64,000 nt of DNA from the human T2T-CHM13v2.0 reference genome, Homo sapiens. Positions 54,529 to 57,131 of the stretch are shown piece by piece. A model generated the notes under the pieces. It was not told the origin of the DNA and made no database searches. It saw nothing but the letters and a program-made list of their open reading frames with translations. Position numbers and translations under genes: made by a program. Location: assembly GCF_009914755.1 (NCBI RefSeq), contig NC_060933.1. The stretch is one strand, 5' to 3'. Within the stretch, counting starts at the first letter, position 1. Each line of letters begins with the position of its first letter.

Positions 54529-55345
54529 CATGTGCCCTCAGGCCTCTGAGTCTACACTGTTTGACCCCTGGGCCTTCGAGGAAGGGGAGGGGCGGGAGGC
54601 TCCCACTGGCATCACTCTCAGGGTCTGCACCCCCAGGATGGAGCCTAGCGAACCCAGCCTGGGTGTTAGGGCTGCAGAGTGAAGACACAAGCCCCTGGTC
54701 ATCACCAGCAGCTTTGTGGCTGACCACCCTGAGTCCTTCCCACGTGGTGTAACACCGTCCTCCCTCCTGCTGTGACATGGCGCCCAGCCCCAGAGCAGCG
54801 GCAGTTCTCACATTCCCCTGCCTAGGAGGGTGCCCAGTCCATCGCAGACACGGTGGGCCACACCCCATCAGAGTGCGACAGGGGCATGCACAGCTGGAGG
54901 CTGTTCCAGGCAGAGGGTCGGCTCGGCGGGGATGGTCCCCTGCCCCTCTGCCAGCCCACTGTGGGCCCCGTGGGTGAGGGGCCATGTCCATGCTAACCCC
55001 GTTTCAGAGCGTGCTGCCCCTTACCCCACACCTCCCCGCCTGATGACATCCAGGCCACCTTGGGGGTGCATTCTGAAGCCAGGGGCAGGGCCAGGGGGAA
55101 GTGAGGAGGGGCTGTGCCGCCAAGAATCCAATTCCCCAGGACTCAGAGGGCTCCAGGCCTGCACTTATCACTTGGCTGCCTGTGTCAGGCCTGACAAGCC
55201 CCTGGTCCCCCACTGGCCGCAGAGGCAACCTCTCCAGGTCCGCATCATGCACAGGCACTCCCTCCCCAGCCCCTTCTCCCCGTGCAAGTTCAGAGGCCAG
55301 AGTGGGTGGGGTTCTGAGGAAACCCCATGGACAGACACACCACCC

Positions 55346-55423
55346 CGTTCACCCTCGGCTAGGGTTAGGGTTAGGGTTAGGGTTAGGGTTAACCCTAACC
55401 CTAACCCTCGTTCACCCTCGGCT
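55346..55423. repeat. Head-to-head interstitial telomeric sequence with a 15-bp flanking direct repeat
   Basis: CGTTCACCCTCGGCT-(AGGGTT)5-(AACCCT)3-CGTTCACCCTCGGCT. Confidence 0.95.
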
Positions 55424-55858
55424 GGGCTAAGGAGAGATGCTGGCACTGTGAACCAGCCCCAGCCTCGGACCCCAAGGAGCAGGACAGGCCTGAGACCCAG
55501 GCCCACCAAATGCTGCCAAAGCCTCGGAAGTCTGGTCCAGACTCCCGGAAGAGGCCAGCTTGGTGCAGCCCCGGCTTTGAGAGAGGGATGGGACTGTTCC
55601 CAAGCCCAGAGAGGCTCAGGCTGAGAAAGTCACCCAGGGACTGCTAGCTGGCCAAGGGGGTGGAAAGTGCACCCAGCACGCCTGGCCCTTGGGCTCCAAG
55701 TGGGGCAGCAGATCTAGTTTCCTAGCTTGGCCCAAGCAAGGCAGCTTCCTGTCACCCCCTGGGCCTGCTGAGCCTTTGAGGATCAAACCCTTAGGGCCTA
55801 GAAGGGCTTTGTGTTTCCTTCCAGGTCGCCATAGGTTTGAGTTTCCTATTGCCACTAT

Positions 55859-57131
<1,273 letters not shown>

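What the first reader, a model, noticed from the sequence alone, without database searches (positions are those of the whole stretch)
55346..55423. Miniature head-to-head telomere fusion with a 15-bp target-site duplication, about 0.8 kb downstream of LCN2
Seen: CGTTCACCCTCGGCT (55346-55360), five perfect AGGGTT (55361-55390), three perfect AACCCT (55391-55408), then the identical 15-mer (55409-55423). Positions 55373-55408 form a perfect 36-bp spacerless palindrome, and the plus strand has five GGG tracts (telomeric G4). Known: short interstitial telomeres are attributed to telomerase acting at double-strand breaks and are usually single-orientation; head-to-head arrays mark end fusions such as 2q13. 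Inference: a staggered break with 15-nt 3' overhangs was extended on both ends in the same AGGGTT register and then ligated, which explains both the inversion and the duplication. It could be a cruciform/fragile site and a TRF1/TRF2/ZBTB48 docking site beside an inflammation gene.
Basis: partly seen in the sequence, partly recalled or inferred. Interest (0 to 1): 0.85.

Follow-up and report, generated by a model that had tools for sequence, protein, structure and literature searches.

The report
Known chromosome 9 inverted telomere-repeat insert
A 48-base insert of telomere repeats pointing at each other, framed by a duplicated 15-base stretch, lies just past the LCN2 gene; it is real and unique in the genome, but it is a catalogued scar of an old repaired DNA break and not a joining of chromosome ends.

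Summary
CGTTCACCCTCGGCT lies at 55346-55360 and again at 55409-55423. Between the copies are (AGGGTT)5 and (AACCCT)3, which form a perfect 36-bp palindrome centred on TTAA.

Whole-genome pattern scans find this arrangement only here and at the chromosome 2 fusion relic. That matches the scan of Muyas et al. 2024 (Nat Commun 15:82). They already named a "chromosome 9 endogenous fusion" with breakpoint TTAA, called it fixed in the population, and use it as an internal control. The object is therefore already known.

It is not a fusion. The insert is 48 bp, every base is a perfect hexamer, and the two flanks share a 15-bp duplication, so they were contiguous before the event.

- **Best reading (0.5):** telomerase extended both 3' ends of an offset break, and the products were joined at the self-complementary TA.
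- **Main rival (0.3):** extension of one end, followed by fold-back copying.

Both mechanisms are in print for other loci. The duplication at this locus was not found in any text I could search. The empty-site test in other primates could not be run here. I found no evidence for the proposed regulatory or fragile-site roles. Interest is modest.

The parts
55346..55360 (.). Left copy of the 15-bp flank duplication (CGTTCACCCTCGGCT)
   Evidence: exact, one of only 2 copies in the window at up to 2 mismatches (chance 0.12).
55361..55390 (+). (AGGGTT)5: telomeric G-rich strand on the + strand, running 5'->3' towards the centre
   Evidence: (100% matches, 5.3 copies).
55391..55408 (-). (AACCCT)3 on the + strand, which is (AGGGTT)3 on the - strand, also running 5'->3' towards the centre
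   Evidence: (100% matches, 3.2 copies).
55409..55423 (.). Right copy of the 15-bp flank duplication
55373..55408 (.). Perfect 36-bp spacerless palindrome. Its centre, TTAA at 55389-55392, is the 'breakpoint sequence' of the published chromosome 9 endogenous fusion.
   Evidence: I3, 18-nt arms, 100%, 0 nt apart. (DNA hairpin -17.3 kcal/mol, z -5.2; 0 of 200 shuffles fold as well). (TTAA breakpoint).
55362..55388 (+). G-quadruplex motif (five GGG tracts, TTA loops)
   Evidence: regex. 59 such motifs occur in the 64-kb window, so the motif is not special here.
55393..55417 (-). G-quadruplex motif on the minus strand, built from three telomeric GGG tracts plus a GGG inside the right 15-mer
   Evidence: regex.

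Best explanation
This is the already named 'chromosome 9 endogenous fusion'. It is a short interstitial telomeric sequence left by the repair of one germline DNA break, not by a fusion of chromosome ends.

Inferred steps:
1. The two strands were cut 15 nt apart, simultaneously or one after the other, so that each side kept a 3' end covering the 15-mer.
2. Telomerase extended both 3' ends with G-rich repeats: five units on the left top strand and three on the right bottom strand. This is the telomerase counterpart of L1 'twin priming'.
3. The two G-rich tails cannot pair along their length. They were joined through the self-complementary TA, which gave the TTAA centre.
4. Fill-in synthesis made the C-rich strands and turned the 15-nt overlap into a direct duplication.

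The product is fixed in humans and is most likely a neutral scar.

Shown here: the anatomy, its uniqueness in the genome, the orientation, and its identity with the published locus. Inferred: every enzymatic step, the order of events, and neutrality.
For: **Anatomy.**. Every one of the 48 inserted bases belongs to a perfect hexamer, and the flanks repeat 15 bp exactly.

**Not chance.**

**Uniqueness.**
- The junction 25-mer occurs once in the 3.1-Gb assembly.
- Perfect dimers in inward orientation within 30 bp occur only here.
- The outward orientation gives 0 matches at both stringencies tested.
- A looser inward pattern finds exactly 2 loci: the chromosome 2 relic, which serves as a positive control, and this one.
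- Muyas et al. also report only chromosome 2 and chromosome 9, with breakpoint TTAA on chromosome 9, present in hg19, GRCh38 and T2T-CHM13 and 'fixed in the population' (passages read).

**Flanks.** They are unique in the genome.

**Contrast with a real fusion.** The chromosome 2 relic carries hundreds of bp of degenerate repeats on each side.

**Mechanisms in print for other loci.**
- Repeat insertion at staggered breaks with flank duplication: 3 of 66 horse loci and 4 of 25 primate loci.
- End-joining is expected to trap telomerase products made at breaks as interstitial insertions.
- TA microhomology makes TTAA one of the two most abundant junctions, 14% each, among somatic inward fusions.

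**Register.** The left flank ends in T, in register with the repeats, and 3 of its last 4 bases match the hexamer.
Against: - The right flank's 3' end (bottom strand) has 0 bases in register with the repeats. In the study read, 75-80% of mouse, rat and human telomerase-type insertions, and 2 of 3 chimpanzee ones, had at least 1.
- Cohesive 15-nt overhangs with 10 of 15 G/C should stay annealed. A simple simultaneous staggered break is therefore awkward, and a sequential, nick-primed route has to be assumed.
- Both arms begin in the same hexamer register at the flanks. The model does not predict this (about 1 in 6 by chance).
- No ancestral empty site was seen, because no primate sequence is available in these tools. 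The duplication is therefore inferred to be insertion-linked and has not been shown to be.
- Nothing in the human sequence separates this model from one-ended extension plus fold-back.
Confidence: 0.5

Rival explanations
1. One-ended telomerase extension followed by fold-back (snap-back) copying. Telomerase adds (AGGGTT)5 to the left 3' end only. The G-rich tail folds back on itself through TA with a 4-nt loop and is extended along its own repeats, which makes the C-rich arm. That arm is then ligated to the right side. The 15-bp duplication comes from the offset break or from templated synthesis during polymerase-theta-type end joining.
For: - The lowest-energy fold of the 78-mer is exactly such a slipped hairpin, with a 19-bp stem and a 4-nt loop inside the repeats. 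In a tandem repeat this leaves an apparently spacerless palindrome.
- The C-rich arm (3 units) is shorter than the G-rich arm (5 units), as self-copying requires.
- The right junction, with 0 bases in register, is natural for a ligation.
- Muyas et al. propose fold-back of a G-rich 3' end as one route to inward fusions.
Against: - It needs more steps: the copy must stop after three units, exactly at a hexamer boundary, and the duplication needs a separate cause.
- There is no inverted copy of flank sequence, which fold-back copying often leaves.
Confidence: 0.3
2. Capture of a ready-made double-stranded telomeric fragment by end joining at a filled-in staggered break. The fragment would be an extrachromosomal inward fusion fragment, or two fragments in opposite orientation.
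For: - Capture of telomeric fragments was the original alternative offered for interstitial telomeric sequences.
- Short DNA fragments that carry inward fusions with a TTAA junction exist in cells.
- The right junction shows no priming homology.
Against: - Such fragments are described in ALT-positive tumour cells, not in the germline.
- Fold-back-derived fragments should have equal arms, whereas here the arms are 5 and 3 units.
- The genome-wide excess of in-register break ends at such insertions favours telomerase.
Confidence: 0.08
3. Replicative template switching (of the microhomology-mediated break-induced replication type). A nascent strand leaves the locus, copies telomeric DNA on one strand and then on the other, and returns 15 nt behind its point of departure, which creates the duplication without any staggered break.
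For: - It explains the duplication and the inversion in one process.
- It avoids the problem of cohesive 15-nt ends.
- Complex insertions with inversions and duplications accompany repeat insertion in 3 of 66 horse loci.
Against: - It needs a telomeric template close to an internal locus.
- The return junction shows no clean microhomology: the insert ends in CCCT where the native upstream flank reads CCCC.
- The perfect repeats in both arms fit fresh synthesis from the telomerase template at least as well.
Confidence: 0.07
4. A true relic of an ancient telomere-to-telomere fusion of two chromosomes, like 2q13, later eroded to 48 bp.
For: Inward head-to-head orientation, and the published name 'endogenous fusion'.
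Against: - The two flanks share an exact 15-bp direct repeat.
- All 8 units are perfect.
- No degenerate repeats lie within 400 bp on either side, whereas the chromosome 2 relic has them throughout hundreds of bp on each side.
- The locus sits in a gene-dense internal region between LCN2 and BBLN (hub annotation).
Confidence: 0.01
5. An assembly or sequencing artefact of the T2T-CHM13 assembly.
For: Palindromes and simple repeats can be mis-assembled.
Against: Muyas et al. report the locus in hg19, GRCh38 and T2T-CHM13. They use short reads across it as an internal control in PCAWG, GTEx and TOPMed data. After error correction TTAA was the only breakpoint in 93.3% of cases.
Confidence: 0.01

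Closest known systems
'Chromosome 9 endogenous fusion' of Muyas et al. 2024 (Nat Commun 15:82; TelFusDetector)
   Same: [quoted passage not shown] My own genome scan gives the same two loci as theirs, chromosomes 2 and 9. It is the same object.
   Different: The passages of their main text that I searched do not mention the 15-bp duplication, the origin or the age. Their coordinates are in Supplementary Table 1, a PDF that could not be read here. Identity therefore rests on uniqueness and the TTAA junction, not on matching coordinates.
Short interstitial telomeric sequences inserted at double-strand breaks (Nergadze, Giulotto and colleagues, 2004-2021)
   Same: A few exact hexamers at an internal site, insertion into otherwise contiguous unique DNA, and flank duplication as one of the listed break-site modifications. 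Head-to-head stretches at a few loci are ascribed to a second telomerase.
   Different: Nearly all described loci have a single orientation. The printed head-to-head cases are TERC-ITS loci of mouse lemur and Xenopus, or a complex horse rearrangement. None is a clean insert with only repeats and a duplication. Whether their human lists include this locus is unknown, because their supplementary tables could not be read.
2q13 ancestral telomere-telomere fusion (fusion ITS)
   Same: Inward head-to-head orientation of TTAGGG and CCCTAA arrays. It is the only other locus found by the scan.
   Different: The chromosome 2 relic has hundreds of bp of degenerate repeats on each side: 37 and 59 hexamers of the degenerate kind within 800 bp. 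Its junction is a different one. The chromosome 9 locus has 5 and 3 perfect units and a 15-bp duplication.
Somatic inward telomere fusions in ALT tumours
   Same: The same TTAA junction, which is one of the two most abundant (14% each) among pure inward events and arises from the self-complementary TA.
   Different: Those are somatic, lie on short fragments or chromosome ends, and are not framed by duplicated unique sequence. This one is germline and fixed.
L1 target-primed reverse transcription with twin priming (Ostertag and Kazazian model, as summarised)
   Same: Two 3' ends of an offset break each prime reverse transcription towards the centre. The result is an inverted structure framed by a target-site duplication of L1-like length (the 7-20 bp range is recalled).
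   Different: There is no L1 sequence and no poly(A). Neither inferred nick site resembles the T-rich/A L1 endonuclease site (recalled consensus; contexts printed). The template would be the telomerase RNA.

Membership tests
Short interstitial telomeric sequence (short ITS) | [quoted passage not shown] | tested here: met
   8 perfect units, at position 140.36 Mb of contig C9, between LCN2 and BBLN (hub annotation).
Short interstitial telomeric sequence (short ITS) | Inserted into sequence that is contiguous at an ancestral empty orthologous locus | not testable with these tools
   No primate genome is held. [quoted passage not shown] A scan of prokaryote genome contigs for the right-flank 24-mer found nothing. 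The exact 15-bp duplication is indirect support.
Short interstitial telomeric sequence (short ITS) | Break-site modification of the end-joining type (none, deletion, addition or duplication) | tested here: met
   An exact 15-bp direct duplication frames the insert. The duplication class is listed.
Fusion ITS (2q13 type) | Head-to-head arrays | tested here: met
Fusion ITS (2q13 type) | The two flanks derive from two different chromosome ends, with long degenerate telomeric or subtelomeric arrays | tested here: not met
   The flanks share a 15-bp duplication. There are no further repeats within 400 bp, whereas the chromosome 2 relic has them throughout.
TERC-ITS | A fragment retrotranscribed from the telomerase RNA outside the template lies next to the repeats | tested here: not met
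   All 48 bases between the two 15-mers are perfect hexamers, so there is no room for any other inserted sequence. The flanks were not compared with the telomerase RNA.
L1-mediated insertion (target-primed reverse transcription, twin priming) | L1-derived or poly(A)-tailed insert and an endonuclease-type target site | tested here: not met
   There is no poly(A) and no non-telomeric insert. The nick contexts CACCC|CGTTC and CGGCT|GGGCT are G/C-rich (the consensus is recalled).
Palindrome-mediated fragile site (PATRR type) | A long, AT-rich palindrome of some hundreds of bp with documented rearrangements (recalled definition) | tested here: not met
   The palindrome is 36 bp. Reads across it give one breakpoint sequence in 93.3% of cases after error correction. 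Rearrangement data were not examined.
Shelterin / ZBTB48-bound interstitial site | ChIP occupancy by TRF1, TRF2 or ZBTB48 | not testable with these tools
   No ChIP data are held. No paper joins 'interstitial telomeric' with LCN2, or with ChIP-seq, TRF2 and 9q34. None of the 10 papers listed of the 28 found appeared from its title or abstract to deal with this locus; they were not opened.

The most novel reading that the evidence does not exclude
The insert is more than a scar. Its eight repeats may dock TRF1/TRF2 or ZBTB48. Its G-quadruplex motifs on both strands and its hairpin lie 0.8 kb past the LCN2 poly(A) site, where they could slow RNA polymerase or yield a TERRA-like hairpin RNA in read-through transcripts. 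Either could influence termination or looping between LCN2 and BBLN. On the origin side, it would also be the cleanest vertebrate footprint of two telomerase molecules acting on both ends of one break.
Probability: 0.07. Interest if true: 0.6.

Novelty: already known. Interest (0 to 1): 0.28.

Why it matters
**Practical.** This is the one place in the human genome, apart from the chromosome 2 relic, that imitates a telomere fusion in sequencing reads. It must be masked, or used as an internal control, in fusion callers, and it already is.

**Conceptual.** The name 'endogenous fusion' misleads. The 15-bp duplication shows that telomeric repeats were trapped inside a repaired break. That makes it a natural record of telomerase, perhaps at both ends at once, acting at a non-telomeric break in the germline. 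Cells normally suppress this reaction. If primate comparison shows a clean empty site, the locus would be a textbook example of the rare head-to-head class of interstitial telomeric sequences. It opens no long-standing question.

Tried and rejected
- **Paralogous empty site.** An 801-bp query around the element matched only itself.
- **Stray primate or human copies in prokaryote genome contigs.** The right-flank 24-mer gave 0 matches.
- **Sister loci in the genome.**
  - The loose pattern gave 6 places, against 3 for the reversed control.
  - One search showed that the 5 others (C3, C5, C7, C11, C23) are single 9-nt inverted repeats without arrays on both sides. C7 has 14 nt of telomeric sequence on one side.
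  - None has a flanking direct repeat longer than 8 bp, so they are not the same kind of locus.
- **Coordinates of the published locus.** Supplementary Table 1 of Muyas et al. is in a PDF that cannot be read. A word search of the 3 readable files found only sample tables.
- **Supplements of Nergadze 2007.** Closed.
- **Nergadze 2004.** Not held.
- **Earlier findings of this scan.** Closed.
- **Meiotic hotspot as the source of the break.** No match to the recalled degenerate 13-mer PRDM9 motif in 55046-55723, against 20 matches in the whole window.
- **Age from sequence perfection.** No change in 78 bp gives only a loose upper bound of about 40-77 million years under recalled mutation rates.
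- **G-quadruplex as a special feature.** Rejected, because 59 such motifs occur in the 64-kb window.
- **Papers linking the locus to LCN2, TRF2 ChIP-seq or 9q34.** None found. The 10 papers listed were judged from their titles and abstracts only.

Full report
**1. The observation**

One search shows, on the plus strand, four parts:
- the 15-mer CGTTCACCCTCGGCT at 55346-55360;
- five perfect AGGGTT at 55361-55390;
- three perfect AACCCT at 55391-55408;
- the same 15-mer at 55409-55423.

Tandem Repeats Finder reports two period-6 arrays with 100% matches. The repeat finder reports 18-nt arms at 55373-55390 and 55391-55408 that are 100% complementary with nothing between them. This is a 36-bp spacerless palindrome centred on TTAA at 55389-55392.

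Neither component is expected by chance.
- The telomeric 12-mer at up to 1 mismatch matches 5 times in the window, all inside the element. The expectation is 0.45, and 0 of 100 shuffles reached 5.
- The 15-mer at up to 2 mismatches has only these 2 copies. The expectation is 0.12, and 0 of 100 shuffles reached 2.

The duplication cannot be extended. The bases just outside the copies differ on both sides: C versus T on the left and A versus G on the right. It is therefore exactly 15 bp. The element starts 804 bp after the annotated end of LCN2 (hub annotation).

**2. Uniqueness in the genome, and identity with a published locus**

The window's own assembly can be searched; the window is C9:140306001-140370000.

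| Pattern | Result |
|---|---|
| 25-mer across the junction | occurs once |
| Two perfect TTAGGG, up to 30 nt, two perfect CCCTAA (inward) | only this locus |
| Same, outward arrangement | 0 matches |
| Looser inward pattern with 9-nt arms | 6 places (reversed control 3) |
| Looser outward pattern with 9-nt arms | 0 |
| Inward pattern of different register | 2 loci: C2:114027649 (chromosome 2 relic) and this one |

The 5 extra places are single short inverted repeats without arrays on both sides and without flanking repeats longer than 8 bp. The chromosome 2 hit serves as a positive control.

This is the result that Muyas et al. (Nat Commun 2024;15:82, and its 2022 preprint) report from their scan of hg19, GRCh38 and T2T-CHM13.
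- They name it the 'chromosome 9 endogenous fusion'.
- Its expected breakpoint sequence is TTAA, and they call it 'fixed in the population'.
- They use it as an internal control and for estimating error rates. After correction TTAA was the only breakpoint in 93.3% of cases (passages read).
- A 2026 preprint excludes the same locus when calling fusions (one passage).

Their coordinates are in a PDF supplement that could not be read. Identity therefore rests on chromosome, structure, junction and genome-wide uniqueness. I put it at about 0.97. These independent read data also exclude an assembly artefact and make common presence/absence polymorphism unlikely.

**3. What it is not**

It is not a relic of a chromosome fusion.
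- The chromosome 2 relic carries degenerate repeats over hundreds of bp. Within 800 bp of its junction it has 13 exact and 37 degenerate G-type hexamers on one side, and 43 exact and 59 degenerate C-type hexamers on the other.
- The chromosome 9 element has its 5 and 3 perfect units and no further exact repeat units out to 400 bp on either side.
- The exact 15-bp direct repeat on both sides means that the flanks were one continuous sequence before the event.
- The flanks are unique in the genome.
- It is not a TERC-ITS. All 48 inserted bases are perfect hexamers, which leaves no room for telomerase-RNA-derived sequence (definition).
- It is not an L1-type insertion. There is no poly(A) and no L1 sequence, and the two inferred nick contexts are G/C-rich (the endonuclease consensus is recalled).

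**4. How it most likely arose**

On both strands the G-rich strand runs 5'->3' from the flank towards the centre. This is the orientation expected if the 3' ends on both sides of a break were extended on a C-rich template, that is, by telomerase.

Each side's 3' end must have covered the 15-mer for the duplication to arise. This is the geometry of an offset break with 3' overhangs, the same as in L1 target-primed reverse transcription. Two G-rich tails cannot pair along their length, but each hexamer contains the self-complementary TA. Pairing of two ...GGGTTA-3' ends through TA gives GGGTTAACCC, which is the observed centre.

Muyas et al. find TTAA and TAA to be the most abundant junctions (14% each) among somatic inward fusions. 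They are also the only inward junctions with microhomology. Fill-in then completes both strands.

All the elements of this model are in print for other loci.
- Flank duplication at staggered breaks: 3 of 66 horse loci and 4 of 25 primate loci.
- The expectation that telomerase products at breaks which do not load shelterin end as interstitial insertions.

**5. Weak points and the main rival**

Points against the two-ended model:
- Only the left flank ends in register with the repeats. Its last base is T, and GGCT resembles GGTT. The right flank's 3' end on the bottom strand has none. In the study read, 75-80% of mouse, rat and human telomerase-type insertions, and 2 of 3 chimpanzee ones, had at least one in-register base. 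Germline telomere additions without microhomology are nonetheless recorded.
- The 15-mer has 10 of 15 G/C. Cohesive ends of that kind should stay annealed, so a simultaneous staggered break is awkward. A sequential, nick-primed course has to be assumed (inference).
- Both arms start in the same hexamer register at the flanks, which no model predicts.

The main rival is one-ended extension followed by fold-back.
- The lowest-energy fold of the 78-mer is a slipped hairpin with a 19-bp stem and a 4-nt loop inside the repeats, at -24.9 kcal/mol with z -6.5.
- Extension of such a folded 3' end along its own repeats would leave what looks like a spacerless palindrome.
- Fold-back also explains why the C-rich arm is the shorter one and why the right junction shows no priming homology.
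- Muyas et al. propose G-strand fold-back for inward fusions.
- It needs additional steps, and it still needs a cause for the duplication.

I give the models these weights:

| Model | Weight |
|---|---|
| Two-ended telomerase extension | 0.5 |
| One-ended extension plus fold-back | 0.3 |
| Capture of a ready-made fragment | 0.08 |
| Replicative template switching | 0.07 |
| True chromosome fusion | 0.01 |
| Assembly artefact | 0.01 |

**6. Age**

No primate sequence is available in these tools, so the empty-site prediction stays untested. The absence of any change in 78 bp, which include 8 CpG positions, gives only a loose bound. Under recalled germline rates, the time at which half of such elements would still be unchanged is about 9-18 million years, and the 95% upper limit is about 40-77 million years. 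Fixation in humans argues against a very recent origin.

**7. Function**

Nothing found here supports a function.
- The element could bind TRF1/TRF2-type proteins, but this is an inference from its 5 and 3 repeats.
- It has G-quadruplex motifs on both strands (55362-55388 on plus, 55393-55417 on minus), but the 64-kb window holds 59 such motifs.
- The 36-bp palindrome is far shorter than the palindromes known to break chromosomes (recalled). Reads across it are uniform.
- No paper joins 'interstitial telomeric' with LCN2 or with ChIP-seq, TRF2 and 9q34. Of the 28 papers found, the 10 listed did not appear from their titles and abstracts to deal with this locus; I did not open them.
- No match to the recalled PRDM9 hotspot motif lies within about 300 bp.

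I take it to be a neutral repair scar. A regulatory or structural role remains possible at about 0.07.

**8. Novelty and verdict**

The object is already known and named. The mechanism class is known.

One detail may be unreported: the exact 15-bp duplication, which shows that the published 'fusion' is an insertion.
- The main text of Muyas et al. uses 'duplicat' only for duplicate reads.
- The phrase 'chromosome 9 endogenous fusion' or 'chr9 endogenous fusion' occurs in 2 of the 7 listed works, of 8 that hold any of the three search terms.
- The junction motif occurs in 30 papers. Of the 15 listed, only the Muyas preprint concerns telomeres.
- The supplements of Muyas et al. and of Nergadze et al. 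2007 could not be read and may bear on this.

The finding is real, tidy and unique in the genome, but it is of modest interest.

Noticed in passing
L015 (G000:C2:114026149-114029174), junction at C2:114027649-114027674: This is the chromosome 2 ancestral fusion relic in this assembly. G-type repeats, many of them TTGGGG-like variants, meet C-type repeats at a TTAGCTAA-type junction. Degenerate arrays extend for hundreds of bp and are longer on the C-type side (43 exact CCCTAA against 13 exact TTAGGG within 800 bp).
   Followed up: partly
L008 (C3:74239768), L009 (C5:175828007), L010 (C7:1850916), L013 (C11:84087681), L014 (C23:114591595): Five short telomere-like inverted repeats (GGGTTAGGG, 4-8 nt, CCCTAACCC) with no arrays on both sides and no flank duplication. 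The reversed control pattern gave 3 places, so they are near chance level. L008 and L009 share the bases next to the arms (ACT before, AA after), so they may be copies of one repeat family.
   Followed up: partly
window 1-64000: 59 non-overlapping G-quadruplex motifs (G3+N1-7, four tracts) on the two strands together, in a window of 55% G+C. The 500 bp on either side of the insert have 65% and 60% G+C, with low CpG observed/expected ratios (0.24 and 0.18).
   Followed up: no
window 56160-56181 and 55078-55096: A 22-base A run at the end of a stretch masked as repeat (55879-56190), probably the tail of a retroposed element. Also a short GCCAGG array of 3.2 copies about 250 bp upstream of the insert.
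   Followed up: no
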